Shown here: piece after piece, positions 37,214 through 59,243 of the stretch
Layout of the letters: the number at the start of each line of letters is the position of its first letter
Position numbering within the stretch: the first letter of the stretch is position 1
Assembly (NCBI GenBank): GCA_011620275.1
Contig: WOZK01000010.1
Location: 5,257-69,256, forward strand
DNA from: Candidatus Omnitrophota bacterium
GTDB lineage: Bacteria > Omnitrophota > Gorgyraeia > Gygaellales > Profunditerraquicolaceae
DNA length: 64,000 bases
Direction: 5' to 3'
Program-made: the position numbers and the translations under genes
Notes under the pieces: model-generated
What the model saw: the letters and a program-made list of their open reading frames with translations, nothing else
Told to the model about the DNA's origin: nothing
Database searches by the model: none

Positions 37214-37242
37214 TTGCGTTAGTTCTTTTCATAACATATAAT
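37214..37242 (+). promoter_or_regulatory. Candidate sigma70 promoter for phoB-phoR (TTGCGT, 17 nt, TATAAT)
   Basis: TTGCGT at 37214-19, 17-nt spacer, TATAAT at 37237-42. Confidence 0.35.
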
Positions 37243-37303: not shown

Positions 37304-38002
37304 ATGGCGGGAGAGAGGATATTGATAGTAGAGGATGACAAGAATATTTCCAGATTGCTGCGTTATAATCTGGAGAAAGAAGGCTATGTGTGTTCGCTGG
37401 CGTCGAATGCCGGAGAAGCGCTGGAAACGCTTTCTAGAGATAAGACGTCGTTGATCATCCTGGATATAATGCTGCCGGGCGGGGTAGACGGTTTTGAATT
37501 ATGCCGCAGAATTAAAAGAGAGCAGTCGTTGAAGGAGATACCTGTTATTATGCTCACTGCCCGGGGAGAGGAAGTGGACAGGGTGGTCGGATTGGAGCTT
37601 GGCGCCGACGACTATGTGGTCAAGCCTTTCAGCCCTCGGGAACTTACCCTGCGCGTTAAAGCCGTCTTGCGCAGACAAAACGCGCCTGAACAAGGCAGGG
37701 ATATCTTCTCCTGCGGGGGGCTGTATGTGAACCTCCCTGAGCATAAAGCGGAGGTGAACGGGAAAAACGTGGAGCTTACGCTTATGGAGTTCAAACTCCT
37801 GGCGGTCCTGGTAGCCAGGAAAGGCCGCGTGCAGACGCGCGACAAACTTCTTTCCGAGGTCTGGGATATGCACGCCGACGTGTACACGCGCACCGTGGAC
37901 ACCCATATAAAAAGGCTCAGGGAAAAACTCGGCCTCGCCGGCAGGATGATCGAAACCGTCAGGGGCGTCGGTTACCGTTTTAACTCCGCATATGAAGATT
38001 AG
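37304..38002 (+). CDS. phoB: OmpR/PhoB-family response regulator, close to PhoB
   Basis: ...[43 protein letters not shown] matches E. coli PhoB [43 protein letters not shown] nearly residue for residue. Winged-helix C-terminus. Confidence 0.85.
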   Translation: [232 protein letters not shown]

Positions 38003-39764
38003 GCTGCATTGGAAGCTTACCGCTTTTTTTTCCTGCGTTTTTATTTTCACATTCCTTGCAGGATACCTTTATCTTTCCGGGCAGGTGAAGGCCTTCCTGC
38101 GGGAGAATTTCTACTCGGACATTAAAAGCCAACTATTCATAAATAAAGCCGTCCTGGAAAGCCGTTTCTCCGGTAAAGTGCCGGTTGATTTGCAGGATAC
38201 GGCCGGGGTTATCGGTAAGGCGCTGTCCCTGCGGGTGTCGATTATCGGTACGGACGGACGCCTGTTGGGCGATTCCGGATTGACGCCGGAGCTGCTGCTG
38301 GCGGCGGACAACCACGCCGGCAGGCCGGAAGTCGCCGAGGCGTTTAGGAACGGCTTCGGGATGAGCAGGCGGTTCAGTCATACCCTGCGGCAGCAGATGC
38401 TCTATATGGCAGTGCCTTTCGGCAAGGGTGAGGTTAGCGGGGTACTGCGGTTCTCGGTGCCGGAGCGCCAAGTAGCATCTTTAGGAAGGCGCGGAGTGAA
38501 TGTTGCCGGGGCGGGGCTGATTTTGATACTTTTTTCCAGCCTGTTTATCACTTTCGTCACGTCCTTTTATGTCTCCAGGCCGCTTGTCTCCATCTCCAGG
38601 ACAGCCGAACTTATGGCAAAGGGAGACCTTTCCCGCAAGGCCCTGGTGAATTCCGGTGACGAGATAGGAGATCTCGCGGCGTCACTTAATTCATTGGCCG
38701 AGGAGATAAAAGGAAGGATAGACGGCATCAGTTCCGAGAAAGCCAAGCTGGACGCCGTTCTTGCCAGTATGTTCGAGGGGCTGGTAGTTATCGATGAACA
38801 GGAAAAGGTCGTCTTGATGAACCCCTCTCTGCGCGGGCTATTTTCCGTAAAAGAAGATCCGCAGGGCAGTAAACTGATCGAGGTGGTGCGTAATACCTCC
38901 GTTCAGGAGATGGCCGATAAGGTAATCTCGGAGAAAGAGCGTCTTGTCACCGGAGAGATCAGGATATTCGTTCCCGAAGAGAAGGTATTGCGCGTTAACG
39001 GCGTTCCTATAATTCGGAGGGGGAGGCTTGAAGGCGCCGTAATGGTTTTTCACGATATTACGGAGTTGAGGCGTCTGGAAAAGATTCGCCAGGATTTTGT
39101 CGCCAACGTCTCTCATGAATTGCGCACGCCTCTTTCCAGCATAAAGGGGTACGCCGAAACTTTGCTGGATGGGGCGGTCGACGATAAAGGGCACGCGCGG
39201 GAGTTTATCGGTATCATCCATCAGGAAAGCGACAGGCTGGCAAATCTGATCAACGACCTTCTCGATCTCGCCAGAATAGAGTCCGGGAATATGGAACTGT
39301 CCAAAGCGCCTTTTGATGTTTTGGCCGTCGCGAAACGGGTAGTAGAAAGCATGGGCGTCCAGGCGCGGGCTAAGTCCATAAAGCTGGGGATAACCGCTAC
39401 CTCCGGCGTCTTACCCTTAGCCGCCGGGGATGAGTTTGGATTCCGCCAGGTCTTGACCAATCTGCTTGATAACGCCTTGAAATACACTTCTGAAGGAGGC
39501 GACGTGACGATCTCCATAGAAGCGGCCGGAGGTTTTCTACAGGTCAACGTCGCGGATACCGGTATAGGTATTTCTCCGTCGGACATCCCTCGTATCTTTG
39601 AACGCTTTTACCGGGTGGACAAGGCCCGTTCGCGGGAAGCCGGCGGAACAGGCCTGGGATTGTCCATAGTAAAGCACATCGTGCAGGCCCACGGCGGCCG
39701 CGTATGGGTGGAATCCGAGCTCGGCTCCGGCTCCGTCTTCAGTTTTACCATCCCTTTAGCATAA
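37992..39764 (+). CDS. phoR: Sensor histidine kinase, PhoR-like (TM, HAMP, PAS, HisKA, HATPase)
   Basis: Overlaps phoB by 11 nt. H-box SHELRTPL, N-box, G-boxes (GGTGLGLSIVKHIV). In pst/phoU context. Confidence 0.8.
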   Translation: MKIRLHWKLTAFFSCVFIFTFLAGYLYLSGQVKAFLRENFYSDIKSQLFINKAVLESRFSGKVPVDLQDTAGVIGKALSLRVSIIGTDGRLLGDSGLTPELLLAADNHAGRPEVAEAFRNGFGMSRRFSHTLRQQMLYMAVPFGKGEVSGVLRFSVPERQVASLGRRGVNVAGAGLILILFSSLFITFVTSFYVSRPLVSISRTAELMAKGDLSRKALVNSGDEIGDLAASLNSLAEEIKGRIDGISSEKAKLDAVLASMFEGLVVIDEQEKVVLMNPSLRGLFSVKEDPQGSKLIEVVRNTSVQEMADKVISEKERLVTGEIRIFVPEEKVLRVNGVPIIRRGRLEGAVMVFHDITELRRLEKIRQDFVANVSHELRTPLSSIKGYAETLLDGAVDDKGHAREFIGIIHQESDRLANLINDLLDLARIESGNMELSKAPFDVLAVAKRVVESMGVQARAKSIKLGITATSGVLPLAAGDEFGFRQVLTNLLDNALKYTSEGGDVTISIEAAGGFLQVNVADTGIGISPSDIPRIFERFYRVDKARSREAGGTGLGLSIVKHIVQAHGGRVWVESELGSGSVFSFTIPLA

Positions 39765-39781: not shown

Positions 39782-39908
39782 CCGGACACGATACTTAATC
39801 AAGCCGGGTTACCTGTCGGAATAGCACTCTGTCTTCAAGGAGAGGCAGGTGTTCACTCGTGTGAAAATGCGGCGCAGACTTGCCCTTAGTTTATCTAAGG
39901 GGTACCCC
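39782..39908 (+). repeat. 127-bp dispersed repeat, left copy of an inverted pair
   Basis: About 96% identical to the reverse complement of 49827..49953. Contains the X module and internal hairpins (GTTCAC-TCGT-GTGAAC). Confidence 0.85.
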
Positions 39909-40048
39909 GGGCGCTTGTCCTGAGCAGTTCAACAGGCTCACTGTCAATGCATTGTCGAAGGATCCGCCCGGGGAGCTTCATTTATCAGCAACAGAAACGC
40001 TAACCAACAGGTTCAATAATTCCCGCCTTCAAACCCTGGAAACGTAAT

Positions 40049-40100
40049 TTCACCATAATTTCACATGTTCTTACCTGTTCCGTCACATAGCGGTAATATA
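40049..40100 (+). promoter_or_regulatory. Array of five phased hexamer direct repeats (TTCACC, TTCACA, TTACCT, GTCACA, GTAATA) at exact 11-bp spacing, followed by a -10-like TAATAT: putative Pho boxes (PhoP/PhoB-type)
   Basis: Hexamers at 40049, 40060, 40071, 40082, 40093. Located 70 bp upstream of the single-domain RR gene that heads the giant-protein operon. Confidence 0.55.
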
Positions 40101-40167
40101 TTCTGATTAGGGGCGGCGTGATTCTTTTAAAGCGTCCGCCGGAGCAGAATACAAACCGGGAGGTTTC

Positions 40168-40599
40168 ATGGGCATTGTCAGGAGCGAGAGAGGCAACTGT
40201 TCCGTGGCCAGGAAGAGAATAATGGTCGTGGAGGATGAACAGGAGATAAGAAGGCTTATGTCTTTTCATATAGCCATAAGCGGTTACGATGCGGTTCCGG
40301 TAAGCGATGGCGCTGAAGCAGTGAAAAGCATCAGGGAAAGACTTCCCGATCTCATAGTCCTTGATATACTCATGCCGCGCATGAACGGTTGGGAACTGCT
40401 GGCCTGTCTGCGTAGGGAATTTCGAGGTAGCGATATCCCGGTGATCGTGGTAAGCGCGCTCGGTGAGGTGGACGACAAATTGCGCGCGTTTGCTTCCGGC
40501 GCAGAGGATTACATGACCAAGCCTTTCAGCCCGAGGGAATTGGTAGCCCGGATACAAAGGATACTTGAACGGCGCGGGGACGCCGGAATCGGGGTTTGA
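40168..40599 (+). CDS. Single-domain response regulator (receiver only)
   Basis: ...[15 protein letters not shown]...[18 protein letters not shown]...[11 protein letters not shown]...[23 protein letters not shown]. Its stop lies 17 nt before the giant ORF. Confidence 0.85.
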   Translation: [143 protein letters not shown]

Positions 40600-40616
40600 A
40601 AGCGGCTATCTAAGGG

Positions 40617-43600
40617 TTGGAACAATGCGCAGACATCCCCGGATCCGGAAATATTAGGCTTATGAGCAATTCGTTTCGTGAATATGGTTTTTTTCGCCGC
40701 GCGGTAACGTTTTTTACTTTCTTGTCCTGCATTTTCGCTTTCTGTCTTCCTTTTTCATTCAGCGCTCCGTCTATCCCTCTAAATCCCGCCGTTTCAGAAC
40801 GACCGGTTTTTGTTTTTCGGTCACTGACTGTAGAAAACGGCAATAAGTTTTTGCGTCTGCCGGTTTTCTCCGCGTCATCCGGACCAACAAGCAGGGAATC
40901 CTGTCTTGAAGAGGAAGCCGGGCGTTTGACACAGTATTTTCTCACAGGTCTTAACGCGCCGTCCGGGGATCTTTGGGTAAATCTTTCGCCGCGTGATCCG
41001 GGCAGAATCGTCGGCCCGGCGTTGAAAGGCACGGAAGCCGGCAAGGTCATGCTCGATGCCGACATACAGCTCAAAAAGGACTTTGCCGCCCTTATATCTC
41101 CTTATACGAACAGGGGAAGTAATTTTTGGGTGCGAGTGAGGATGAAGAGCGGCGAGCTGTTCGGCGCCGGTGGAATGCAAATCCCTCTGGAGATAAGGCT
41201 CTGGATAGAGCCGTCGGAAGTCGTGATAAAAGAAAGCAATGAGAGCGCTTTCATAGAGAGGGCCGTGCTGAAAGTTTCTTTTGAACCGGTTTTCGGGCCC
41301 GGGGCGGACAGCCGCCTTATCCTTTTCGGCAACTACGCCTGCGGTCTGCTTTCGCCTTCAGTTTCGGAAGAGTTGACCGCGGCGGTCAATTCCGCCCCGC
41401 GTTATTGTCGGCTGAGGCAGGTTTTCAATTCCCTGGTGTTGGCACAATGGTTAAAACAGAGATCCGCCTCCCGAGAGGCGTATAACGAACTTGCCGCACG
41501 CGGCGTGCTCTGTGGTTTAGTCTCCGGCGCGCGCTGGTCGGCGCAGGACTACTTCAGGCAGTACAAAAAACTGGCGCAGAAGCACTCCGTAGATTTTTCT
41601 TCCATTAGTTTTTTGTCGACGGGCGAGATAAGTGTTATCTCCGGCTTCAGCGGGGGAGTTTCTTTCGCTCTACCGGCGTTTCCGCCTCCTGGAACGGTAG
41701 CCCTGCCGTTCCATGCCGGAGCGGTTACCGTCAAACCGGCCTCAGGGAATGAGACCGATAAATTGTGCAGGTCCGTGGTCGAGGCAAGCATAAAAACAGG
41801 GGCTTCCGGAGGCGTGCCGGAATTGGGGATAACCGTTCATCCTCTGCCGGACAGGACTCCCGCTGACACGGATAAGCTGTTCGTTTATGTTCATCCCGCC
41901 GCATCGGACGGCGGAGAAAGCGGAGCAGGAACCGATTCCCAGTCCGTCGATAATAACGTTGAGCGTTCAGGGATCAGCCGGCAGGAATATTTTGATAGAT
42001 TGCTGCGTTCCTGGGCCGGGATACTGGATTCAAACGAGAGGAAGGAGTTCCATGCGTCAATACGCAACGATATTCTCAATATTTCCAGTCAATGCGTAAC
42101 AATCATGCCTTTTATCCCTGAACGGGCAACCGGTAAGGCAGAGTCTCTGGCTTCTGATATACGGCTGATCGTTGACTTGCTCCGCGAGACCGTTCGCAGG
42201 ATCGATTATAACGTTGTCCCTGCGGATGAAGAAGAAAGAAAATCGGTTGCCGCGGAACGGGAGGAATTGCTGGCGGCCATCGAGTATTTCGCGGAATACG
42301 AATATGCCCTGAATTTCGTGGTGAATATCCCGAAGATCGAGCCGTATAGATTCAAACGGGGAGGGCGTTTCTGGCGTGCTTGTGAAACGGCGGTAAGGAG
42401 GGTCTTTCTCTTTGAGTACGGGCTAAGACGGTCGAGGCAGCTGCTGCTGGAGCAGACGGATAAAGTTATCAGCTTGGGGAACCGGCTGAACCGCGCCTAT
42501 ACCGGTAAAGAGAAATACGTTAGAGAAGAATGGAAGAAGTGGATCGCCGAGCAGGACATCCTGAACGGCGGAGTTAAACGCGCAGCGGGCGTGAAGAACA
42601 AAAGCAGCGTTCCGCTTGGTATCAACCGGACATGGAAGACCACCGGGACCACTACCCGTTTTGTGAGTTTGATATCGGTGTGTTTGTTCCTGTTTGTATC
42701 CATGCTTGATTTCGGGCACATTCTTGCCGGCATTTCGTTATTCCTGCTCAAACTGGGCCTGGTCGGCATGTCTTTTTTTATTTCCTGGTACAGTATCGCC
42801 TGGGTCGGATTCAACGACGTTTGGTATAAGCAGCGCATATCGGAACTTGAGTCATTGAGGAACAACGAAGCCGTTTGCGATTTCAGAAGAGAGCGGATTA
42901 AATCCGAGATCACGCAGACTTTAAACAGTTTCAAGAGAGAGAAACGTGCCCCCAGCGTTGATTACATACTTGTTTTTTGCAAGCCGGGGATGAAAAAAAA
43001 CGTCCGGCTGAACCCCGAACTGCTCAGAGATGATGTTCTTCTGGAAATAACGGAAGCCGATTCCGGAAGCGGCGGGGTTTACGCGCAGGCGTGCAGCGAT
43101 CTTCTGTCCGGCAGGTACGATTCGTCATTTGAGAGAACGGCGAGGCTCAAAGGTAAAAGTGTTTCCGATATGCGCGGCATCGTGATTGTCCTTGAGCGCT
43201 TCTTTTCAGTTTCCGAGACGGACGGATATCTGGATAAAGCGGCATCCGGCGCCGTATTGCCGGCAGGCTGGGGCCCTTTGAATAATCTGGAGATGGCTTT
43301 GTTGAACGGTTATAAATCCACTCAGGAAATGGGTGCTTTGGGCAGGAGCGGGATGGTTTTTGTATTTGCCGATAACTTTCTAATCAGCCCCGCGACAATA
43401 AAGGGCGATATAACGTTGATAGGTTCATGGGACAGCTATCGGCATATAAAAGATTGGGGATTGGGGCTGCTTGTCGCCGATATCGGCAGCGGCGACAAGC
43501 TGGTTAAATTGTATGAAAAGGCGGATACTCCTCGTTTGCATAAGAAGCTTCGCAGGTCTTTTCTTTACACGGCGTTGGATTGGGAGAATGAGGACAAGAC

Positions 43601-46600
43601 CCAGATGCTGGGGTTCACCGGTATGACGATCTTCAGCTTCAAAGATCCGGGGCAGTACAGGCGTTTCCTTGGACTGATGGCGGAGATAAATACGTTAATC
43701 AAGCCGCAGAAATCCCCGGTTTTCACAGATCGGGAAGCTTCATTATCTCCCGTGCCCGGGCGTTATTCATTCGTGCCTGAAATCATGGTGCCTTTGGTCA
43801 TGACCGGTAACGGCGAGAATCCGTATACCTATCTGGATACTCGTTTCAGTAACGGGGAATTTTCCGGCGGTGATCACGGCCGGGAATACAAGGTAAGAAA
43901 AGAACTGATAAACAGAATTTTCGCGCAAAGGAACACTTTGCGCCCGGAGGTCAAGGTTTGCGCCGGCACCAATTCATTGTTCTTCAGACCGTGGAATGAC
44001 TCCGGACAAGAAACGGCGGGTATCCCTGACAAGAAAGATGGTGATAGTGCCGATGAAGACAAGTTTCAGGATATCCTGCTTTACTTTGCCGATCTGCTGT
44101 CCGGCAAGAGGGGTCAGCATCTTGATAAAAAGGCGCGCAATGAAATATTGAATATCGTGCACCGCTGCGTAATCCGCAATCCTTTTACTACGGAATGCGC
44201 GGCGGACAATCCGGAGAGAACGGCCGCCGATATATACATCCTGGCGGAACTGTTGAAAAAAAGTATAAGCATACTGGGCGAACAAGCCGGGAGCGCCGGG
44301 ACGCGGGAAGCGGAGGAACTCTTGTCGGACAGGGACCATCTATTGGCGGTATTCGAGTATTTTTCCCGATATGAATACGCGCTTAACTTTGTGGCCAACA
44401 TCTCGAAAATAGAGCCGTATAAATTCAAGAGGGCGGATCCCTTATCCAGCCGGTTGAGCTGGTTGGTGAGGCGTCTTTTTTCTTTCGAAACAGGTCTGCG
44501 AAAGTCGCGGGAGAGACTGTATAAGCAACTGGATGAGGTGATGGAATACGGCAATCTCGTGAACGGACTGTATTATGGCAGGGAAGAGGATATCAGACGA
44601 GAGTGGAAAGAGTGGGTGAACCGGTATTCATTATTGAAACGCGAAGACAGAGCGGCAGGACGGTTGAGCGGGCAGGTCCCCCCGCTCTCCGACAAGTGTA
44701 TGACAAGATTCATGCATAGGCAGAAGGTTCAATTGGGTGTCAACCGTATCTGGGACAGCGATAGAGGAATGATGTCGAGATTGCTGAGCTTGATCTCCCT
44801 GACCTTATTTGCCGTATTGACTATCGCGCCGTTTATCGGCGCCGGCAGTTTGTCATTATTCTGGGGGGCGATGCAGTCTCCCGGCAGTTTTATCGCCGCC
44901 TCTTATGCAAACGGGGATATTACGGCTTTCGTTCTCACCTCGATCAGATTTTGTCTCGGCGTCATTCCCCTGATCTTTTCCTGGTATAACCTCAGTTTCG
45001 TAAGCGTAAGCGATCCTTGGTACGAGTCCAATATGAAGCTTATAGCGGATTTTAGGCACGCCGGGGCGGGGAAATACGCTTCGGAAAGCGGCTTATCTAA
45101 AGAATTCAACGCCCTTGTCCGGGCGTATGAGGCCGAGATATCGGCTCCTCTTCCGTCGGCAGACTTCTTGATAGTAGTCGGCAGCGGCTCGCCGGATAGT
45201 AAAAAATATTTCACGGGAAACGGAATGCCGATCCGGGATAAAGGTGTGTTTCTGAAATATCTCACCGGAAGCCGCGGCAGCGGGAATGCCTGGTTGTCCG
45301 CGGTCAGATACCTGGAATCGGATTTTATGAAGGAGAGCGGCCGGTCTCCACAGGGGCTTAAAGGAATAATAATCCTCGCTGATGACATCGAGACCCCCGT
45401 TCGCCTCCCGTTCTCTCTTCCGCAGAGAACCCTGAAGCGATCCGGGCGCCCTTTGAGCAATATAGATCTTGCTATTCTTAACGGTTACAAATTGACGCAG
45501 CAGATGGCGTCGGAAGGCAGGGGCGGCCTTGTGGTTACCTATGCGGATAGCCTGTTGATAAGTCCGATGCAGATAGACGGTGATATCACGGTGTCCGGCG
45601 TATGGACGGATTATGAACAGTTGCGCGAACAAAACCCCGGATTGCTTATTGCCGATGTGGGCAAAGGAAATCGTCTCAGGAAGATGTATGAAAAAGCCGA
45701 TTTGCATAGAGTACGCGGCAAGATAGAAAAAGCGGCCGGTCCGGGCGCGATAAACTGGGCTGAAATGAAACGCAGGCAGCTGCTTGTTTTCGCAGGAACG
45801 GTCGTCATCAGTTTTAAGGACGATGTGCGTTATGCCGGTTTCCTCAAGATGATGGCTGAAGCGGCCGTCTTCTCCACGCCCCGGGGCAATAAAGAGGATA
45901 AATTGTCGTTCGTTTCCGATATCTTCATTCCTTTATTGATGTTGATGAACAATGAGAATCCTTACACGTACCTGGATGCGGTATCGCTCGGGCAGAACAG
46001 GGAATTTGTCATGAACGAAGAGGGATGCGTCTTGAGAAGAAGAATAATACGGTTGTTTGAAAAGCAGCGGGATATTCTGCCGGGTATGGCGAGGGTATGT
46101 GTTCATCCTCAGGGGACATATCTGAGGCTGGACCATAGCCCTTTTGCCGGCAAGAGACTCGCTTATTTAAATGCCCGCATGCGGCAAGAGACGTCCGGCG
46201 TGTCGGTTTCGCATTCGTCTCTGGAGAATCGAGCGCCGGATACCGCGCGGGAAAAGGGAGTTCGGACTGAGTGGAAGAATGACTGCAGGGATAAACCGGC
46301 ATTCAGGCCGGCCGGGAACGCCGCCGGCCGGGCATTCGCGGTTTCCTCCGCGTTTCCGTTATCCGTTGATTTCTTATGGAATACGGACAGGCTGCAGACC
46401 GTCTTAAGGGATAGGTTGGACAAGGAGCTCCTGAGAGAATGGCGTTATCGGCGTGCTTGGGATGTATTGTCTGTGAAGTCCAAGGTATGCCGTAGGGATG
46501 TTTTGTCCGCAGGGGAAGTGTTGGGAGAAGAATTTGAGGTTTTTCCGCAGGCAGAAAACCGCCGGCGGGAAGATGTTTTCGGACGGGCAATAGGTTATGC

Positions 46601-47276
46601 CGTCATGGACGGATGGCGGGCCCCCCTGGACGGATGGCGGGCCCCCGATGCATTTTACAGCTCGGTCCAGCCGCCGCAAGAAGGGTTTCCCGGTCCTCTG
46701 CCGCTTGACAGCGGCGGTCCCTGGTCCTCAAGATATAAGTTCCAATATGGAGGGACTTATTCTGGGGCCGGAATGTTCACGAGACCCGGCGGCGGAGAAA
46801 GAGCTGTCCTTTCAGATAAGCCGGGGCAGGAGGCGTATTTGTTCGTTCCCGCGCCGCTTCTTAAGCCGGCGAACAGACTTAAGGAGAATGAAGAATGCGT
46901 TTATAACCTTTGGGCAAAACCTAAGAATGGAGGAGAAGGATTCATGCTTTTGGGAGGGCTTGGCGGACTTTCAGCTCTCTCGGAAGGGCTGATAGAAAAA
47001 GCCCTGCAGGCGCTCGCGAATGCCGGTAAGGATGCTTCCGGATTCAATTTCTTTCTTGTCAGCAGTTGTGATCTCTCCAACCGAATAGACGTGACCCCTC
47101 AGTTATACGCGTCCGCCGGAGACGGTTGTTTTTCGCGAGGCGATTACAAAGGCGCTTTAAAATATTACGATCTCTGCCTCGATCTCTACGGCAAAGCCGG
47201 CCTGTCCCCGTCTCTTTATGAAAGGATCGCGGCGGGAAAACAAAAGGCCGGTGAGATGCTGAAAACGGGGGCCTGA
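40617..47276 (+). CDS. Giant (2219-aa) exported/membrane protein of unknown function with two tandem ~700-aa paralogous modules, each with a TM hairpin, and a TPR-like C-terminus
   Basis: Uninterrupted 6.66-kb ORF. Signal/anchor at residues ~20-50. Module A (nt ~42040-44130) and module B (~44130-46200) share about 45-50% identity (EYFAEYEYALNFVVNIPKIEPYRFKR vs EYFSRYEYALNFVANISKIEPYKFKR, LNGYKSTQEMG vs LNGYKLTQQMA, NENPYTYLD in both). TM pairs at ~42655-42830 and ~44760-45010. DGWRAPL tandem repeat at 46606-46647. No confident catalytic family. Confidence 0.75.
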   Translation: MEQCADIPGSGNIRLMSNSFREYGFFRRAVTFFTFLSCIFAFCLPFSFSAPSIPLNPAVSERPVFVFRSLTVENGNKFLRLPVFSASSGPTSRESCLEEEAGRLTQYFLTGLNAPSGDLWVNLSPRDPGRIVGPALKGTEAGKVMLDADIQLKKDFAALISPYTNRGSNFWVRVRMKSGELFGAGGMQIPLEIRLWIEPSEVVIKESNESAFIERAVLKVSFEPVFGPGADSRLILFGNYACGLLSPSVSEELTAAVNSAPRYCRLRQVFNSLVLAQWLKQRSASREAYNELAARGVLCGLVSGARWSAQDYFRQYKKLAQKHSVDFSSISFLSTGEISVISGFSGGVSFALPAFPPPGTVALPFHAGAVTVKPASGNETDKLCRSVVEASIKTGASGGVPELGITVHPLPDRTPADTDKLFVYVHPAASDGGESGAGTDSQSVDNNVERSGISRQEYFDRLLRSWAGILDSNERKEFHASIRNDILNISSQCVTIMPFIPERATGKAESLASDIRLIVDLLRETVRRIDYNVVPADEEERKSVAAEREELLAAIEYFAEYEYALNFVVNIPKIEPYRFKRGGRFWRACETAVRRVFLFEYGLRRSRQLLLEQTDKVISLGNRLNRAYTGKEKYVREEWKKWIAEQDILNGGVKRAAGVKNKSSVPLGINRTWKTTGTTTRFVSLISVCLFLFVSMLDFGHILAGISLFLLKLGLVGMSFFISWYSIAWVGFNDVWYKQRISELESLRNNEAVCDFRRERIKSEITQTLNSFKREKRAPSVDYILVFCKPGMKKNVRLNPELLRDDVLLEITEADSGSGGVYAQACSDLLSGRYDSSFERTARLKGKSVSDMRGIVIVLERFFSVSETDGYLDKAASGAVLPAGWGPLNNLEMALLNGYKSTQEMGALGRSGMVFVFADNFLISPATIKGDITLIGSWDSYRHIKDWGLGLLVADIGSGDKLVKLYEKADTPRLHKKLRRSFLYTALDWENEDKTQMLGFTGMTIFSFKDPGQYRRFLGLMAEINTLIKPQKSPVFTDREASLSPVPGRYSFVPEIMVPLVMTGNGENPYTYLDTRFSNGEFSGGDHGREYKVRKELINRIFAQRNTLRPEVKVCAGTNSLFFRPWNDSGQETAGIPDKKDGDSADEDKFQDILLYFADLLSGKRGQHLDKKARNEILNIVHRCVIRNPFTTECAADNPERTAADIYILAELLKKSISILGEQAGSAGTREAEELLSDRDHLLAVFEYFSRYEYALNFVANISKIEPYKFKRADPLSSRLSWLVRRLFSFETGLRKSRERLYKQLDEVMEYGNLVNGLYYGREEDIRREWKEWVNRYSLLKREDRAAGRLSGQVPPLSDKCMTRFMHRQKVQLGVNRIWDSDRGMMSRLLSLISLTLFAVLTIAPFIGAGSLSLFWGAMQSPGSFIAASYANGDITAFVLTSIRFCLGVIPLIFSWYNLSFVSVSDPWYESNMKLIADFRHAGAGKYASESGLSKEFNALVRAYEAEISAPLPSADFLIVVGSGSPDSKKYFTGNGMPIRDKGVFLKYLTGSRGSGNAWLSAVRYLESDFMKESGRSPQGLKGIIILADDIETPVRLPFSLPQRTLKRSGRPLSNIDLAILNGYKLTQQMASEGRGGLVVTYADSLLISPMQIDGDITVSGVWTDYEQLREQNPGLLIADVGKGNRLRKMYEKADLHRVRGKIEKAAGPGAINWAEMKRRQLLVFAGTVVISFKDDVRYAGFLKMMAEAAVFSTPRGNKEDKLSFVSDIFIPLLMLMNNENPYTYLDAVSLGQNREFVMNEEGCVLRRRIIRLFEKQRDILPGMARVCVHPQGTYLRLDHSPFAGKRLAYLNARMRQETSGVSVSHSSLENRAPDTAREKGVRTEWKNDCRDKPAFRPAGNAAGRAFAVSSAFPLSVDFLWNTDRLQTVLRDRLDKELLREWRYRRAWDVLSVKSKVCRRDVLSAGEVLGEEFEVFPQAENRRREDVFGRAIGYAVMDGWRAPLDGWRAPDAFYSSVQPPQEGFPGPLPLDSGGPWSSRYKFQYGGTYSGAGMFTRPGGGERAVLSDKPGQEAYLFVPAPLLKPANRLKENEECVYNLWAKPKNGGEGFMLLGGLGGLSALSEGLIEKALQALANAGKDASGFNFFLVSSCDLSNRIDVTPQLYASAGDGCFSRGDYKGALKYYDLCLDLYGKAGLSPSLYERIAAGKQKAGEMLKTGA

Positions 47277-47311: not shown

Positions 47312-47365
47312 TTCACACGGATTTCACAAATGCTTAATTCAGTTGTAACGGAGTGGTTTTATACT
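47312..47365 (+). promoter_or_regulatory. Phased TTCACA, TTCACA, TTAATT, GTAACG repeats (11-bp period) plus a TATACT -10: putative Pho-box promoter of the porin-pstS1 operon
   Basis: Hexamers at 47312, 47323, 47334, 47345. TATACT at 47360-47365. 110 bp upstream of the porin start. Confidence 0.55.
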
Positions 47366-47476: not shown

Positions 47477-48778
47477 ATGAAAAAATGGTATTTATTGTTT
47501 ACGGCGGCAGCGGTATTCGCAACAGCGCCGGTATCCAACGTCCGCGCCGGGGAGATCGACATCCTGCTGGATAAACTGGTTGATAAAGGAGTGCTTACCG
47601 CAGGGGAGGCGCGGCAGATAGCAGCCGAGACCAAGGAGGACGTTCGTAAAGAGGTCGCGGCCGGCAAGTCGGACATCCTGCCGAAATGGGTGCAGAACAC
47701 GAAATTGAAGGGTGATTTCCGCCTGCGTTATCAAATGGACCATGCCAAGAGTTCTCATAATCAAACAAAGAACAGACAGCGCGGACGCATCAGGGCGCGC
47801 CTGGGGCTTGAATCGAAAGTGAATGAGAAACTGCTCGTGGCGGTTGGAATAGCCACCGGCTTGAACGAATACACGACGTCCAACAAAGACACCATCCGTT
47901 CCACAAACCAGACGCTCGGCGCTTCCTGGTCTAAGAAGCCGTTTAACCTGGATTACGCCTACGCTAAATACACCCCGATGCCCGGGTTCGCGGTGATCGG
48001 CGGTAAAATGCTGCTTAAGGATGCGATTTGGGAGCCGGGCGACCTGATGTGGGATACCGATATTACCCCGGAAGGCGTGGCTTTTGATTTCGCCAGAAAT
48101 GTAAACAGCGATATGAGCGTTTTCCTGAAGAGCGGTTTCTTCCTGTTTGAAGAGATCAGCTCCAGCAACGACGACCCGTATTCCATACATATCCAGCCAG
48201 GTATGGACGTGAAGATCGCCGACGGTATCTCTCTGCGCGCTTCGGTGGCGGCAGACTATTTCCGGGTGCGCGATTTTACTTTAAAAGGCAGTTCGGTGAG
48301 CAACACCGGGTCGTATAAGAGCGGGGATAACAGCTACGCGGTCCCCATGGCAAACTACACCAATATAATGCCTGCCCTTGAATTGAAATTTAGCGATCCA
48401 TTCAAGGCGTTCCATATCAACGTGCCGCAGTTGAGACTCTTCGGAGAATACATCAGGAACTTCGCAGACATCGATCCTTACACCGGTAAGAGCGGTTATA
48501 TGCTCGGGTTCGGCCTCGGCGCCGACAAGGTCGCCAAATTCGGAGACTGGGTGTTGAAATATAACTACGCCAGGCTGGAAAAGAACGCCGTGCTTGATAT
48601 CCTGCCGGATTCCGACCGTTACGAGGGGAAGACCAATATCCGCGCGCACGAGATCGCGCTCGATTTCGGACTGGGTGAGAATACCTGGCTTGGCCTCGAC
48701 GTTTACAGAGCACAGTTGTTGACTGCTCCAAGAGCTCCTTCTACGGTAGTGCAGGTTGACTGGAATATGAAGTTCTAA
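47477..48778 (+). CDS. Outer-membrane beta-barrel porin, probably phosphate-selective (OprO/OprP-like)
   Basis: Signal peptide MKKWYLLFTAAAVFATAPVSNVRA, an N-terminal helical segment, alternating amphipathic beta-strand pattern, and a C-terminal aromatic (..VDWNMKF). Sits immediately upstream of pstS behind putative Pho boxes. Confidence 0.55.
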   Translation: MKKWYLLFTAAAVFATAPVSNVRAGEIDILLDKLVDKGVLTAGEARQIAAETKEDVRKEVAAGKSDILPKWVQNTKLKGDFRLRYQMDHAKSSHNQTKNRQRGRIRARLGLESKVNEKLLVAVGIATGLNEYTTSNKDTIRSTNQTLGASWSKKPFNLDYAYAKYTPMPGFAVIGGKMLLKDAIWEPGDLMWDTDITPEGVAFDFARNVNSDMSVFLKSGFFLFEEISSSNDDPYSIHIQPGMDVKIADGISLRASVAADYFRVRDFTLKGSSVSNTGSYKSGDNSYAVPMANYTNIMPALELKFSDPFKAFHINVPQLRLFGEYIRNFADIDPYTGKSGYMLGFGLGADKVAKFGDWVLKYNYARLEKNAVLDILPDSDRYEGKTNIRAHEIALDFGLGENTWLGLDVYRAQLLTAPRAPSTVVQVDWNMKF

Positions 48779-48841
48779 GCCAGGGTTGAAGCGGGATGCC
48801 CGGTGAAACGGACAACGAAAATAATTAAGGAGGAAAAACAA

Positions 48842-49657
48842 ATGAGAGCTAAAACGTTAATCTTATGCGCCGCCGCGGCGATCTTTCTGGCGGCAGCGGC
48901 ACCCTGTTACGCCGGCAAGGTCGTGGTGGAAGGTTCCACCACGGTATTGCCGATAGCCCAGCGCGCCGCGGAAGTCTTTATGGACGATAACCCGCAGGTA
49001 GACATTTCGGTGCGGGGCGGAGGGTCAGGGGTCGGCATAGCTTCTTTGCTGGCCGGCACCTGCGATATCGCCGATTCGTCCCGTCCCATAAAGGAAAAGG
49101 AACTTGAAGACGCTGTGAGCCGCGGCAAAGACCCCAAGGCTAACGTAATCGCGATGGACGGAATAGCCGTGATAGTAAACCCTTCCAATCCCGTCAAGTC
49201 CATGACTAAGAAACAGTTAAAGGATATTTATACGGGAAAGATATCTTCGTGGTCTGCCTTGGGAGGCAGCGGTTCGATAGTGGCGGTTTCCCGGGACAGC
49301 TCTAGCGGGACCTTTGAAGCGTTCGGCGAGCTCGCTCTGGACAAGGAGAAGGTTAGGCCGGACGCGCTTATGGAAGCATCCAACCAAGCTGTCGCCTCGG
49401 TGGTGGCCAAGACACCGGGCGCGATAGGTTACGTCGGGATCGGCTACATAAACGATTCCGTGAAGGCGCTTGAGCTTAACGGCGTCTATCCTTCCAAAGA
49501 AACGGTTTTGCGCAACCGTTATGCGCTTTCCCGTCCATTATTTATGTATACGAACGGCAAGCCTGACGGTGATTGCAAATCCTTTCTTGATTTCATCATG
49601 AGCAAACAAGGACAGATTCTGGTGGAAAAAGAGGGTTACATCCCGCTGGGCGGATAG
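48842..49657 (+). CDS. pstS: Phosphate ABC transporter substrate-binding protein PstS
   Basis: AAGGAGG RBS before ATG 48842. Signal peptide, then GSTTVLPIAQRAAEVF...GGGSGVGIASLLAGTCDIADSSRPIK..., the PstS family signature. Confidence 0.9.
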   Translation: MRAKTLILCAAAAIFLAAAAPCYAGKVVVEGSTTVLPIAQRAAEVFMDDNPQVDISVRGGGSGVGIASLLAGTCDIADSSRPIKEKELEDAVSRGKDPKANVIAMDGIAVIVNPSNPVKSMTKKQLKDIYTGKISSWSALGGSGSIVAVSRDSSSGTFEAFGELALDKEKVRPDALMEASNQAVASVVAKTPGAIGYVGIGYINDSVKALELNGVYPSKETVLRNRYALSRPLFMYTNGKPDGDCKSFLDFIMSKQGQILVEKEGYIPLGG

Positions 49658-49826
49658 CCGGGCCACGGAAGGCGTATAAGTGTAAACCATGTACCCGGTC
49701 TATAGTGTAAAGTATGTTACCAGTTTGTACCATTATCGCCTCTTCCGTCATCCTCCCCATCAAGGTGAGGAAAGAAGCGAATACTTGGCCTTCCGATAGG
49801 CCAAGGTAAATCCCCGGCACTCTACA

Positions 49827-49953
49827 GGGTACCCCTTAGATAAACTAAGGGCAAGTCTGAGCCGCATTTTCACACGAGTGAACACCTGCCTCTCCTTGAA
49901 GGCAGAGTGCTATTCCGAGAGGTAACCCGGCTTGATTAAGTATCGTGTCCCCG
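49827..49953 (-). repeat. 127-bp dispersed repeat, right (inverted) copy
   Basis: Reverse complement of 39782..39908 with about five mismatches. Ends 17 bp before the pstC start. Confidence 0.85.
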
Positions 49954-49969
49954 GAAGAAAAAATCTACT

Positions 49970-50860
49970 ATGAAAAGATTATTCTCCAAAGAAAGCGTTT
50001 ACGCCTCTGTCTTCGGCATACTGGCCTTTGCCTGTTTGATCTTTCTGGCGGGAATAACCCTGGTACTTTTTAAAGAAGGACTGCCGTTGTTCGCCAAGGT
50101 AAGCCTGTGGGATTTCCTTTCCGGTACCGCGTGGTATCCCACGCACGAAGACCCCGAGTTCGGGATACTGTCGCTGTTGGCCGGCTCGTTATGGGTTACC
50201 GCGGGAGCGATGCTGGTTTGTCTTCCTTTGGGCATAGGCAGCGCCCTTTATATAAACGAGATCGCCGGCAATACCCAGAAGGCGGTGTTGAAACCGCTGG
50301 TGGAATTGCTGGCGGGTATCCCTTCCATAGTGTTCGGTTTTTTCGGGATGGTGGTGGTCGCGCCGTTCCTGCAGAGGCTGCTGCATATTCCTACAGGGCT
50401 TTGCGCCTTTACCGCCAGCCTCATCCTGGGTATCATGGCGGTCCCCACTGTCTGCAGTCTTTCCGAGGATGCCTTGAGCTATGTTCCTGCCAGTTACCGG
50501 GAGGCGTCCCTTGCGCTCGGCGCCACCCGCTGGGAGACTTTAATCAAGGTCGTTCTACCGGCTGCCGGTTCAGGTATATCCACGGCCGCCATACTCGGTG
50601 TCAGCAGGGTGATGGGCGAAACGATGACGGTCCTGATGGTCTCCGGAGGGGCGGCTATAATCCCGCATTCTTTTTTTCAGCCGGTAAGGCCGTTGACGTC
50701 CACTATCGCCGCGGAGATGGGGGAGGCCGCCGTGGGCAGCACGCATTACCAAGCGCTCTTCGCCATAGCCATGGTGCTTTTCACGCTTACTTTCATTTTT
50801 AATATCGCCGCCGAGATCTTAAGCCGCAGATACCGGTTAAAGCTGGGAATACAAAGATGA
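49970..50860 (+). CDS. pstC: Phosphate ABC transporter permease PstC
   Basis: Six TM helices and the EAA-like loop ...LGATRWETLIKVVLPAAGSGI... Confidence 0.9.
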   Translation: MKRLFSKESVYASVFGILAFACLIFLAGITLVLFKEGLPLFAKVSLWDFLSGTAWYPTHEDPEFGILSLLAGSLWVTAGAMLVCLPLGIGSALYINEIAGNTQKAVLKPLVELLAGIPSIVFGFFGMVVVAPFLQRLLHIPTGLCAFTASLILGIMAVPTVCSLSEDALSYVPASYREASLALGATRWETLIKVVLPAAGSGISTAAILGVSRVMGETMTVLMVSGGAAIIPHSFFQPVRPLTSTIAAEMGEAAVGSTHYQALFAIAMVLFTLTFIFNIAAEILSRRYRLKLGIQR

Positions 50861-51804
50861 GAAGAAAGATTTGCGTTACAGGAGTCTTCCGGAAGCTTTT
50901 TGAGCGGACGTTCGCGCGGAGCGCCGGGAACGTTTCGGTATCGGCCGGATCCTATAGGAACAAGCAGGCCGCGCAGAAAGCCGGGTTTTTCCTGTTGTTC
51001 TGCTGTATCCTCGCGACGCTGCTGTTCCTCGGCAGTATCGTTTATTTCATTTTTGCGGGGGGAAGTAAAGTCGTCACTTGGGGTTTCCTCACCCAGTGGC
51101 CGCGCAACGCTATGACCGAAGGCGGGATATTCCCGGCTCTGTTGGGGACTTTTTATCTTACCCTTGGGGCGGTAACGGTCGCTTTACCGCTGGGGCTGGC
51201 GTGTGCCGTGTATCTATGCGAATATACGCCCGGCAGCCTGGCGCTTAACGCCATTCGCATCGGCATAAACAATCTTGCCGGAGTGCCGTCGGTCGTCTTC
51301 GGGCTTTTCGGCCTGGCGGTGTTTGTGAAATTCTTTGGTTTCGGGGTTTCGGTGCTTTCCGGGAGCCTGACTTTGGGAATACTTATTCTGCCGGGAATAA
51401 TATCGGCTTCACAGGAGGCGCTTATGGCCGTGCCTAATTCCCTCAGGGAGGCTTCTTTCGCTTTGGGAGCTACCCGCTGGCAGACAATCAAGAAAATAGT
51501 CGTCCCACAGGCGTTGCCGGGTATATTGACCGGCGTGATCTTGAGCATCGGCAGGGCGGCGGGCGAGACCGCTCCCATACTTTTTACCGCCGCGGCTTTT
51601 TATACGCGGAGGTATCCGCAGTCTCCGTTTTCTGAAGTCATGGCGCTGCCTTATCATATTTACGCCCTGATGACTGAAGGGACGCATCCGCGCCAGCAAA
51701 CGGTTATAGCCTACGGCAGCGCGCTGGTTTTGCTTATACTGGTGCTGCTGATTTCCGGGACCGCGGTTTTCATACGCCAGAGACATAGGAGTTACAATGG
51801 ATAA
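50857..51804 (+). CDS. pstA: Phosphate ABC transporter permease PstA
   Basis: ...[48 protein letters not shown]... Confidence 0.9.
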
Positions 51805-52639: not shown

Positions 52640-52790
52640 TTCATCTTTCTTGACTGTCATCCCTCCTTCATCCTCCCCATCGAGGGGAGGAAAGATTGGA
52701 GGTATCCATTGGGGAGGAAAGATAGCTTGAATTCTGTTGGTTACCGTAACCGAATTAAGTATCGTGTCCCCGGAAGAAAGGATGCGTGGA
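52640..52790. repeat. Mosaic repeat (Y module, with the inverted repeat CTCCCCATCGAGGGGAG, plus the X module) immediately upstream of phoU
   Basis: Near-identical copies at 63520..63636 and, in reverse complement, 8185..8275. Confidence 0.8.
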
Positions 52791-52791
52791 T

Positions 52792-59237: not shown

Positions 59238-59243
59238 AAGTCT

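What the first reader, a model, noticed from the sequence alone, without database searches (positions are those of the whole stretch)
40049..47276. Phased TTCACA repeat arrays (putative Pho boxes) drive an operon of a single-domain response regulator plus a 2219-aa membrane protein
Two separate promoters in this window carry the same architecture: 4-5 hexamers of the form TT(C/A)ACN at exact 11-bp spacing, ending about 10 bp before a -10-like hexamer.
- 40049-40098: TTCACC, TTCACA, TTACCT, GTCACA, GTAATA.
- 47312-47350: TTCACA, TTCACA, TTAATT, GTAACG.

This is the organisation of PhoP/PhoB-dependent promoters. B. subtilis PhoP uses TT(A/T/C)ACA repeats with 11-bp periodicity in place of a -35 box. 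A near-canonical phoB-phoR pair lies immediately upstream (37304-39764), and the second array drives an OprP-like porin and pstS.

The first array therefore places a receiver-only regulator and a giant unknown protein in the phosphate-starvation regulon. Large Pho-regulated envelope proteins of this kind are not a described family, which makes this the best candidate for a novel phosphate-limitation response module. Candidate roles include a surface polymer or lipid remodelling scaffold, or phosphate scavenging.
Basis: partly seen in the sequence, partly recalled or inferred. Interest (0 to 1): 0.78.

Follow-up and report, generated by a model that had tools for sequence, protein, structure and literature searches.

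The report
Phosphate-starvation promoters driving an Omnitrophota giant protein
Two promoters in an uncultivated Omnitrophota bacterium carry the repeat pattern typical of phosphate-starvation control: one drives the phosphate uptake genes, and the other drives a small signalling protein plus a 2204-residue membrane protein of unknown function built around two degenerate sugar-nucleotide-enzyme folds.

Summary
TTCAC-N6-TTCACA occurs exactly twice in 64 kb (0.02 expected). Both copies belong to one 52-bp architecture: TTCACN-N5-TTCACA-N5-(weak unit)-N5-GT(A/C)AC-N10-TATA. It has four 11-bp units and no -35 box, ending 9 bp before TATATT or TATACT.

Array 2 drives Porin_5-pstSCAB. Array 1 drives a receiver-only regulator (40168-40599) and a giant ORF, probably 40662-47276 (2204 aa, not 2219).

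Both arrays and the gene order phoB-phoR-RR-giant-porin-pstSCAB-phoU recur in every orthologous locus recovered, although the giant is only 47-49% identical while its neighbours are 73-87%.

All 25 matches on Omnitrophota-labelled contigs lie upstream of an ORF: 9 phoB-like regulators, 6 Porin_5, 2 receiver-only regulators, 4 further large proteins with the same N-terminal domain, and 4 small ORFs.

Pho-regulon membership is well supported in silico. The function is inferred only.

The parts
37304..38002 (+). phoB-like OmpR-family response regulator (232 aa)
   Evidence: Pfam Response_reg plus Trans_reg_C. The best NCBIfam hit is PhoB TIGR02154, 247 bits, below the 296 cut-off.
37992..39764 (+). 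phoR-type sensor kinase (590 aa; HAMP-PAS-HisKA-HATPase)
   Evidence: Pfam. NCBIfam PnpS equivalog 435 bits, at or above the 400 cut-off; PhoR_proteo 311 bits.
39903..39985 (+). GC-rich hairpin element between phoR and array 1. It is not part of the promoter and may end the phoBR transcript.
   Evidence: MFE -41 kcal/mol, z = -3.5. Related copies occur in L002 at the same place and between the RR and the giant. No Rfam match.
40049..40087 (+). Array 1: four 11-bp-phased units (TTCACC, TTCACA, TTACCT, GTCACA), equal to two putative PHO boxes
   Evidence: Conserved in L001, L002, L003, L039, L121 and L122.
40097..40102 (+). -10 hexamer TATATT, 9 bp after unit 4
   Evidence: Invariant TATA in the alignment of 13 promoters. 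No -35 consensus is present.
40168..40599 (+). Receiver-only response regulator (143 aa)
   Evidence: Pfam Response_reg only, residues 18-130. It is 38% identical to the PhoB of its own genome and 45-51% identical to the receivers of array-driven full-length regulators in other Omnitrophota.
40662..47276 (+). Giant ORF, 2204 aa, with no Pfam or NCBIfam hit
   Evidence: Intact orthologues at 94, 85, 49, 48 and 47% identity.
40692..40775 (+). N-terminal hydrophobic segment (residues 11-38), either a signal peptide or a signal anchor
   Evidence: Hydropathy. Positive n-region (R6, R12, R13) read from the sequence.
40884..41681 (+). N-domain (residues ~75-340), shared with about 40 other Omnitrophota proteins of 1.2-3.8 kaa
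41982..43997 (+). Module 1 (residues 441-1112): helical part with the EYEYALNFVVNIPKIEPY motif, a TM hairpin (residues 664-717, nt 42651-42812) and a nucleotidyltransferase-fold domain (residues 760-1112, nt 42939-43997)
44055..46136 (+). Module 2 (residues 1132-1825): the same three parts, with TM hairpin at residues 1374-1449 (nt 44781-45008) and nucleotidyltransferase-fold domain at nt 45144-46136
46137..47273 (+). C-terminal region. Residues 1826-2076 are poorly conserved (16-19% identity to the distant orthologues). The last 128 residues are conserved (62-70%) and carry a TPR-like motif (residues 2128-2190).
47312..47350 (+). Array 2: TTCACA, TTCACA, TTAATT, GTAACG at 11-bp spacing
   Evidence: Conserved in L001, L002, L029, L047, L052, L121 and L122.
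47360..47365 (+). -10 hexamer TATACT, 9 bp after unit 4
47477..48778 (+). Porin_5-family outer-membrane porin (433 aa)
   Evidence: Pfam PF16930, E 2e-41.
48803..52558 (+). pstS (48803-49657), pstC (49970-50860), pstA (50857-51804), pstB (51797-52558)
   Evidence: Pfam and NCBIfam.
52786..53466 (+). phoU
   Evidence: Pfam PhoU, E 5e-41.

Best explanation
The window holds the Pho locus of a Candidatus Omnitrophota bacterium.

Regulation. Two activator-dependent promoters lack a -35 box. Each carries four head-to-tail 11-bp units (two PHO boxes, core TTCAC) ending 9 bp before the -10. Under phosphate limitation PhoR would phosphorylate PhoB, and PhoB dimers would occupy the units and recruit RNA polymerase. 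One promoter then turns on Porin_5-pstSCAB. The other turns on a two-gene unit: a single-domain receiver and a 2204-aa membrane-anchored protein.

Shown by computation:
- the architecture, its non-random occurrence, its conservation and its association with Pho genes across species;
- the domain make-up of the giant.

Inferred: PhoB binding, Pi dependence and co-transcription of the two genes.

The giant protein. In order, it has a signal-peptide-like N-terminus, an Omnitrophota-specific N-domain, two copies of a module (helical domain, TM hairpin, GDP-fucose-pyrophosphorylase-like nucleotidyltransferase fold) and a conserved TPR-like C-terminus. Both nucleotidyltransferase-fold domains have lost the NTP-binding GGxGTR loop but keep the Asp of the 'GD' motif and the Glu-Lys of the 'EKP' motif.

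Most likely role (low confidence, about 0.25). The giant is a starvation-induced membrane scaffold. Its two pseudo-enzyme domains bind, rather than synthesise, a sugar phosphate or nucleotide sugar, as the inactive paralogue GMPPA does. This would couple envelope glycan or organophosphate handling to phosphate status. The phosphorylated receiver would serve either as its on-switch or as a phosphate sink for PhoR.
For: - Positions and spacing of the units are as reported.
- The dimer occurs 2 times against 0.02 expected. The full architecture occurs 2 times against 0 expected.
- No -35/-10 consensus lies at either site, and no terminator-like site lies between the RR and the giant.
- phoB/phoR lie upstream and Porin_5-pstSCAB-phoU downstream.
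- Loci found through the protein alone (L001, L002, L121, L122) keep both arrays and the synteny. In L122 the giant is 47.5% identical while its neighbours are 73-87%.
- The genome-collection scan returned 118 or more loci against about 2 expected by chance.
- All 25 matches on Omnitrophota-labelled contigs lie 6-192 nt upstream of an ORF: 9 phoB-like regulators, 6 Porin_5, 2 receiver-only regulators, 4 large N-domain proteins and 4 small ORFs.
- L048 reads phoR, array, a 1265-aa protein with the same nucleotidyltransferase-fold domain, array, regulator.
- Domain evidence.
Against: - No experimental or expression data exist. PhoB binding is inferred from position and analogy.
- The window's phoB scores below the NCBIfam PhoB cut-off.
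- phoB itself, phoU and the second pstSCAB operon (58386-62506) have no array, so the arrays mark only part of the expected regulon.
- The loci from the pattern scan were selected by the pattern, so their internal conservation is partly circular. Only the identity of the downstream genes is independent evidence.
- About 85 of the scan hits are an unrelated multi-copy element in Lachnospiraceae, so the pattern alone is not specific to Pho.
- In L002 a hairpin element followed by a T-rich tract lies between the RR and the giant and could attenuate read-through.
- Membrane topology is unresolved. A signal-peptide-like N-terminus plus TM hairpins would place the nucleotidyltransferase folds outside the cytoplasm.
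- The proposed ligand-binding role has no direct support.
Confidence: 0.72

Rival explanations
1. The arrays are operators of a different OmpR-family regulator, not PhoB. In this reading the receiver-giant unit belongs to another stress regulon, such as envelope stress or a second Pho-like system, that also controls the porin-pst operon.
For: - In other Omnitrophota the architecture precedes full-length regulators that are only 38-43% identical to the window's PhoB. For one of the four tested, RpaB was the best NCBIfam hit rather than PhoB.
- The receiver-only protein is closer to that clade (45-51%) than to PhoB (38%).
- The window's own phoB has no array.
Against: - The only full-length OmpR-type regulator in the conserved locus is the phoB next to phoR.
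- The architecture drives pstS-containing operons in every species examined.
- PhoB is the best family hit for 3 of the 4 array-driven regulators.
- The window clade has only the truncated, DNA-binding-less copy of the second regulator clade, so that copy cannot be the binder here.
Confidence: 0.15
2. The giant gene is not co-transcribed with the receiver. Array 1 controls only the receiver gene, and the giant has its own, unrecognised promoter. Its linkage to the Pho locus would then be positional rather than regulatory.
For: - The RR-giant gap is 62 bp here but 117-163 bp in L001 and L002.
- In L002 the gap holds a hairpin element followed by a T-rich tract.
- The giant has no Shine-Dalgarno sequence.
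Against: - No promoter-like or terminator-like site lies in the gap.
- Both genes are on the same strand in all orthologous loci.
- In four other species the architecture lies directly (8-71 nt) upstream of a large N-domain protein with no intervening gene. In L048 it lies directly upstream of a protein with the same nucleotidyltransferase-fold domain.
Confidence: 0.08
3. The phased hexamers are a chance or compositional feature of AT-rich promoter DNA and have no regulatory meaning.
For: - Each hexamer is short.
- The third unit is poorly conserved.
- With one mismatch allowed, the dimer is only weakly enriched (2 against 0.67 expected).
Against: - The exact dimer occurs 2 times against 0.02 expected, and the full architecture 2 times against 0.
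- Conservation is base-for-base in register across loci whose flanking intergenic DNA has diverged.
- The genome scan gave 118 or more loci against about 2 expected.
Confidence: 0.02

Closest known systems
PHO boxes of PhoB/PhoP-dependent promoters (E. coli CTGTCAT units; Streptomyces GTTCACC direct-repeat units; B. subtilis PhoP TT(A/T/C)ACA repeats)
   Same: Head-to-tail 11-bp direct-repeat units, two or more per operator, replacing the -35 box about 10 bp upstream of the -10, and placed in front of pstS. The definition is taken from PMC4415409. The core TTCAC(A/C) is nearly the Streptomyces core. The B. subtilis consensus is from my own knowledge.
   Different: This is a new phylum with its own consensus: TTCACA, TTCACA, TTAAKK, GT(A/C)AC. 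The fourth unit is consistently G-initial and the third is weak. No binding data exist.
FKP, the L-fucokinase / L-fucose-1-phosphate guanylyltransferase; specifically its GDP-fucose pyrophosphorylase domain (PDB 9iis, 9iit; Pfam PF07959)
   Different: Identity is 13%. The window copies give no Pfam hit and lack the GGxGTR loop (LERFFS and LADDIE in its place). They are embedded after a TM hairpin in a 2204-aa protein and have no kinase domain.
Catalytically inactive nucleotidyltransferase-fold paralogues (GMPPA in the GMPPA/GMPPB complex; eIF2B gamma and epsilon)
   Different: There is no sequence relationship beyond the fold. Loss of activity here is inferred from motif loss only.
Omnitrophota long membrane-anchored 'multi-enzyme' and 'tandem-repeat' proteins (preprints 10.64898/2026.06.07.730766 and 10.1101/2023.11.21.568195)
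   Same: Same phylum. Signal peptide plus scattered TM helices, internal domain repeats, and relatives with fused metabolic enzymes such as PEPCK, PPDK, transketolase, PGM and NUDIX.
   Different: Those studies treat proteins of 10 kaa or more, or giant genes. This protein is 2.2 kaa. A text search of both found no mention of phosphate regulation, PhoB or nucleotidyltransferases, and (first preprint only) none of promoters. They were not searched for the shared N-domain.
Pho-controlled switching of cell-surface glycopolymers (B. subtilis tua operon for teichuronic acid; S. meliloti galactoglucan genes activated by PhoB)
   Same: A Pho regulon that includes envelope glycan functions with sugar-nucleotide enzymes. 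This is a functional precedent (my knowledge; PMC6232261 appeared in the result list but was not opened).
   Different: There is no homology to those gene products, no glycosyltransferase or polymerase is encoded next to the giant, and the nucleotidyltransferase folds look inactive.

Membership tests
PhoB/PhoP-dependent (PHO-box) promoter | Two or more direct-repeat units with 11-bp periodicity | tested here: met
   Four units at an exact 11-bp step in both arrays. The exact dimer occurs 2 times against 0.02 expected.
PhoB/PhoP-dependent (PHO-box) promoter | The operator replaces the -35 box and ends about 10 bp upstream of a -10 hexamer | tested here: met
   Unit 4 ends 9 bp before TATATT or TATACT. 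The scan finds no sigma-70 -35/-10 pair at either site.
PhoB/PhoP-dependent (PHO-box) promoter | The same operator lies in front of core Pho genes (pstS, phoB) in the genome and in relatives | tested here: met
   Array 2 precedes Porin_5-pstSCAB. Across species it precedes 9 phoB-like regulators, 6 Porin_5 genes and 1 PstS. It is absent from the window's phoB, phoU and second pst operon.
PhoB/PhoP-dependent (PHO-box) promoter | A cognate PhoR-PhoB two-component system is encoded | tested here: met
   Genes at 37304-39764. The kinase passes the PnpS equivalog cut-off. The regulator's best hit is PhoB but falls below the cut-off.
PhoB/PhoP-dependent (PHO-box) promoter | Binding by the phosphorylated regulator and Pi-dependent transcription | not testable with these tools
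   This needs EMSA or footprinting and expression data.
Sugar-1-phosphate nucleotidylyltransferase (NTP_transferase PF00483 / Fucose_pyrophosphorylase PF07959) | The nucleotidyltransferase (Rossmann-like alpha/beta) fold | tested here: met
Sugar-1-phosphate nucleotidylyltransferase (NTP_transferase PF00483 / Fucose_pyrophosphorylase PF07959) | A match to the family profile | tested here: not met
   The giant gives no Pfam or NCBIfam hit. Only 2 of 32 aligned family members hit PF07959 or PF00483, at E about 1e-6.
Sugar-1-phosphate nucleotidylyltransferase (NTP_transferase PF00483 / Fucose_pyrophosphorylase PF07959) | The NTP-binding signature loop G-G-x-G-T-R | tested here: not met
   The window copies read LERFFS and LADDIE at the columns where distant members read AGGFGTR or AGGKGTR.
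Sugar-1-phosphate nucleotidylyltransferase (NTP_transferase PF00483 / Fucose_pyrophosphorylase PF07959) | The metal and sugar-phosphate motifs (Asp of 'GD', Glu-Lys of 'EKP') | tested here: inconclusive
   FADNF and YADSL keep the Asp. YEKA keeps Glu-Lys but not Pro. The functional meaning is unknown.
Single-domain (CheY-like) response regulator | A receiver domain only, with the acidic pocket, phospho-acceptor Asp, Ser/Thr and Lys | tested here: met
   Pfam Response_reg covers residues 18-130 of 143, with no output domain. E22-D23, D66 (LIVLDI), S95 (VVSA) and K117 (TKPF) were read from the translation.
Omnitrophota long membrane-anchored proteins | An N-terminal signal peptide or TM, sparse TM helices and internal domain repeats; named homologues are all from Omnitrophota | tested here: met
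   Described in the preprint read. The length (2.2 kaa) is below that study's 10-kaa threshold.
OprO/OprP phosphate-specific porin | Membership of the OprO/P porin family | tested here: not met
   The only Pfam hit is Porin_5 PF16930. There is no NCBIfam hit. Phosphate specificity was not tested.

The most novel reading that the evidence does not exclude
The receiver and the giant form a previously unrecognised phosphate-limitation effector module specific to Omnitrophota. PhoR-dependent phosphorylation of the stand-alone receiver would switch a membrane-anchored protein whose two pseudo-nucleotidyltransferase domains capture or sense nucleotide sugars or sugar phosphates, possibly host-derived, at the cell envelope. 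More broadly, a subset of the phylum's enigmatic large membrane proteins would be nutrient-starvation effectors under PhoB control.
Probability: 0.2. Interest if true: 0.75.

Novelty: new variant of a known kind. Interest (0 to 1): 0.58.

Why it matters
Omnitrophota are almost entirely uncultivated. Their many large membrane proteins have no assigned function and no known regulation.

This locus gives a concrete, testable handle. A recognisable PhoB-type operator, defined here with a phylum-specific consensus, sits in front of one conserved large protein and in front of related large proteins in several other species. That predicts these proteins are induced by phosphate limitation. The prediction can be checked in existing metatranscriptomes or metaproteomes and with purified PhoB.

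The work also identifies the repeated core of the protein as a degenerate GDP-fucose-pyrophosphorylase-like fold. This narrows the search for a ligand. The regulatory part itself is an ordinary Pho regulon, so the value lies in the cargo.

Tried and rejected
- A word-indexed homologue search with the isolated nucleotidyltransferase-fold domain returned nothing, not even the orthologues. This is a limit of the tool. The exhaustive profile search replaced it.
- The N-domain alignment was too diverse to seed a metagenome scan. The module alignment found only three loci.
- PDB sequence searches gave only a C-terminal TPR-like match.
- Rfam found nothing in the window or in the Lachnospiraceae loci.
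- I tried to derive the membrane topology from the positive-inside rule. The result was contradictory. The flanks of the hairpins carry K/R, but a conserved K697/R1429 lies just before the last helix, and the N-terminus looks like a Sec signal. I make no topology claim.
- I looked for weaker arrays upstream of phoB, phoU and the second pstS and found none.
- I looked for an internal promoter in the RR-giant gap. A TTGAAC-N18-TTTTAT is shared by L001 and L002 but is not conserved in spacing in the window, so I rejected it.
- The hairpin element at 39903-39985 was checked against the hammerhead core by eye and does not fit.
Full report
**Observation.**
- Array 1: TTCACC 40049, TTCACA 40060, TTACCT 40071, GTCACA 40082.
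- Array 2: TTCACA 47312, TTCACA 47323, TTAATT 47334, GTAACG 47345.

In both promoters the fourth unit is followed by 9 bp and then TATATT (40097-40102) or TATACT (47360-47365). The exact dimer TTCAC-N6-TTCACA occurs twice in the window against 0.02 expected. The whole 52-bp architecture, TTCAC-N6-TTCACA-N16-GTMAC-N10-TATA, occurs twice against none expected, even with two mismatches allowed. A sigma-70 consensus scan finds no -35/-10 pair at either site and no terminator-like site between the receiver gene and the giant gene.

**Context.** The window is a Pho locus of a Candidatus Omnitrophota bacterium.
- phoB-like regulator: 37304-38002.
- phoR-type kinase: 37992-39764. It passes the NCBIfam PnpS equivalog cut-off.
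- Array 1, then the receiver-only regulator (40168-40599) and the giant ORF.
- Array 2, then a Porin_5 porin, pstS, pstC, pstA, pstB and phoU.

The giant most likely starts at ATG 40662 (2204 aa), as its orthologues do. It gives no Pfam or NCBIfam hit.

**Conservation found independently of the DNA pattern.** Homologues of the giant were found by protein search and their contigs fetched.
- L001, L002, L121 and L122 all have the order phoB-phoR-receiver-giant-porin-pstSCAB-...-phoU. L001 and L002, which extend further, continue into a second pstSCAB.
- All four have both arrays in the same register relative to the -10.
- Units 1, 2 and 4 and the -10 are conserved. Unit 3 is weak in array 1.
- In L122 the neighbours are 73-87% identical to the window's proteins but the giant is only 47.5% identical. 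The promoter is therefore held constant while its largest cargo evolves quickly.
- Within the giant, the N-domain (67%), the first TM hairpin (70%) and the last 128 residues (62-70%) are the best conserved parts. Residues 1826-2076 are nearly free to vary, at 16-19%.

**Regulon test across species.** I scanned one genome per species (185,579 species) for the full architecture. My own estimate of chance matches is about 2. The scan stopped at its cap with 118 loci.
- About 85 hits are an unrelated, near-identical multi-copy element in Lachnospiraceae.
- All 25 matches on contigs labelled Omnitrophota lie 6-192 nt upstream of an ORF on the same strand. The ORFs are 9 full-length phoB-like regulators, 6 Porin_5 genes, 2 receiver-only regulators orthologous to the window's, 4 large proteins with the same N-terminal domain as the giant (L007 at 1872 aa; L024, L031 and L075 cut off by the locus or contig end), and 4 small ORFs of 61-72 aa.
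- A PstS gene follows the architecture on a contig labelled Syntrophobacterales (L091).
- In L048 a slightly relaxed array follows phoR and precedes a 1265-aa protein. That protein has a different N-terminus but carries the same repeated globular domain, and it is followed by a second array and a regulator.

The pattern-selected loci cannot be used to prove conservation of the pattern itself. The identity of the genes downstream is independent evidence, and it is what a Pho operator predicts. The architecture matches the published definition of PHO boxes: two 11-nt direct-repeat units per box, with a species-specific core such as CTGTCAT in E. coli or GTTCACC in Streptomyces (PMC4415409).

**Limits of the regulatory inference.** The window's phoB, phoU and second pstSCAB operon (58386-62506) have no array. 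The second operon has instead a TTGAGC-N17-TGtTATAAT promoter at 58263-58291. The phoB-like regulator scores below the curated PhoB cut-off. Nothing here shows binding or phosphate dependence.

**The receiver.** The 143-aa protein is a receiver domain only, with the usual acidic pocket, acceptor Asp, Ser and Lys. It is 38% identical to the PhoB of its own genome. It is 45-51% identical to the receivers of the array-driven full-length regulators of other Omnitrophota. In those species a full-length regulator under an array lies next to the large protein (L007, L048, L024). The window clade therefore seems to keep a truncated copy of that second regulator, placed in the same transcription unit as the giant. 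In L030 a receiver-only reading frame runs directly into the porin gene under an array. The stand-alone receiver is thus a Pho-locus component in its own right.

**The giant protein.**
- Hydropathy shows an N-terminal hydrophobic segment (residues 11-38) and two hydrophobic hairpins (664-717 and 1374-1449).
- Residues 441-1112 and 1132-1825 are a tandem duplication (33% identity, E 5e-113). Each copy has a helical part with an invariant EYEYALNFVxNIxKIEPY motif, a TM hairpin and a globular domain of about 340 aa.
- An exhaustive profile search of 1.84 billion representative proteins found this module in only 100 clusters, mostly proteins of more than 1000 residues, up to 5,600 aa.
- Two distant family members still hit Pfam Fucose_pyrophosphorylase and NTP_transferase and keep AGGxGTR and EKP. 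The window's two copies read LERFFS and LADDIE in place of the GGxGTR loop, but keep the Asp of 'GD' and the Glu-Lys of 'EKP'. I therefore do not file them as nucleotidyltransferases. They have the fold but fail the profile and the signature loop.
- The C-terminus carries a TPR-like motif. In L007 a separate TPR protein follows the large gene.

**Topology is unresolved.** The N-termini of this protein and its relatives look like Sec signal peptides. With hairpins, that would place all large domains outside the cytoplasm. The charge distribution around the hairpins is ambiguous. Published work on Omnitrophota long proteins notes the same difficulty: metabolic-enzyme domains are predicted to be extracellular, possibly through missed TM helices.

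**Mechanism.** The regulatory half is the best supported, at about 0.7-0.8. Under phosphate limitation PhoR phosphorylates PhoB. PhoB dimers bind the two boxes head to tail and activate transcription of porin-pstSCAB and of the receiver-giant unit.

For the cargo I commit, at about 0.25, to a starvation-induced membrane scaffold. Its two pseudo-enzyme domains would bind a sugar phosphate or nucleotide sugar rather than make one. The phosphorylated receiver would act as its switch or as a phosphate sink for PhoR. Precedents, from my own knowledge, are the inactive paralogue GMPPA and the Pho-controlled glycopolymer switches of B. subtilis (tua) and S. meliloti (galactoglucan).

**Rivals.**
- A different OmpR-type regulator binds the arrays (0.15).
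- The giant has its own promoter (0.08).
- The arrays are chance (0.02).

**Novelty.** The operator is a new, phylum-specific member of a well-known kind. The cargo is a lineage-restricted protein family whose Pho control and pyrophosphorylase-like core I did not find described. The two preprints on Omnitrophota long proteins mention none of phosphate regulation, PhoB or nucleotidyltransferases, and the first, which was also searched for the word, does not mention promoters. I rate it a new variant of a known kind, with interest 0.58.

Noticed in passing
window 39903-39985; L002 ~9200-9250 and ~9908-9965: A GC-rich hairpin element of about 80 nt (CCCGGGC..CTGTCCTGAGCA..GAAGGAT..GCCCGGGG, then CTTCATTT). 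It lies after phoR in the window and in L002, and again between the receiver and the giant in L002. It is absent from L001. MFE -41 kcal/mol, z -3.5. There is no Rfam match and only one copy in the window. It may be a mobile palindromic element or a terminator.
   Followed up: partly
L004, L008, L009, L014-L016, L026, L041 and about 80 other loci (Lacrimispora, Hungatella, Clostridium): The genome scan also picked up a near-identical multi-copy element in Lachnospiraceae: TTCACAAACTCTTCACAGATCCATCAAATTCCCGTCACAATTTCCCGGTATA. It has up to 3 copies per 8 kb, usually no ORF within 200-350 nt downstream, and no Rfam match. It has the same phased TTCACA/GTCACA units, so it may be the operator of an OmpR/PhoP-type regulator in front of long leaders.
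   Followed up: partly
L033, L094, L111 (61-67 aa); L059, L081, L087 (65-77 aa): In several Omnitrophota or mis-binned contigs the same promoter architecture precedes small ORFs of two types. One is a single-TM peptide (..IAAASLLAISLFLLFRYVKPRR..DFIIDLLN..). The other is a helical peptide (..LNTLLTNMEEQ..D..). They are possible small Pho-regulon proteins.
   Followed up: no
L030 ~1957-3680: Under an array, a receiver-only reading frame (about 128 aa) continues without a stop codon into the signal peptide and body of a Porin_5 gene, giving one ORF of 574 aa. This is either a true fusion, an assembly error, or two genes with the second using an internal start.
   Followed up: no
L048 676-4581: The order is phoR, a relaxed array (TTCACA-N5-TTCACA-N5-TTAAAG, fourth unit divergent), a 1265-aa protein carrying one copy of the nucleotidyltransferase-fold domain but a different N-terminus, a full array, and a regulator. 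This links the domain, not only the N-domain, to Pho promoters.
   Followed up: partly
window 58263-58291 and 58386-62506: A second pstSCAB operon has no array. It has a sigma-70-type extended -10 promoter instead (TTGAGC-N17-TGtTATAAT). This suggests one constitutive and one PhoB-induced phosphate transporter. The duplication is conserved in L001 and L002.
   Followed up: partly
window 36321-37241: The UbiA-family prenyltransferase gene just upstream of phoB is intact (305-307 aa) in L001 and L002. In the window it carries an in-frame stop (..VFLLL*PLLVV..) and an apparent frameshift in its second half. It is either a pseudogene or an assembly error.
   Followed up: partly
window 40662-47276 compared with L122: The giant is 47.5% identical between lineages whose flanking Pho proteins are 73-87% identical. 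A 250-residue stretch (1826-2076) is almost unconstrained, at 16-19% identity. The giant evolves much faster than the rest of the locus.
   Followed up: yes
P0123, P0127: Family members with an intact AGGxGTR loop also begin with classic signal peptides (..ALITPTPAWA|L....CAGSVSA|AD..). One has a pyruvate-kinase-like stretch between the signal peptide and the nucleotidyltransferase domain. Enzymes of apparently cytoplasmic type sitting behind Sec signals look like a phylum-wide puzzle.
   Followed up: no
window 53691-58154: Between phoU and the second pst operon lie a Fur-family regulator, a dinitrogenase FeMo-cofactor-binding-like protein (PF02579), a methyltransferase, and two CbiA/ParA-type P-loop proteins with 4Fe-4S ferredoxin inserts.
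   Followed up: no
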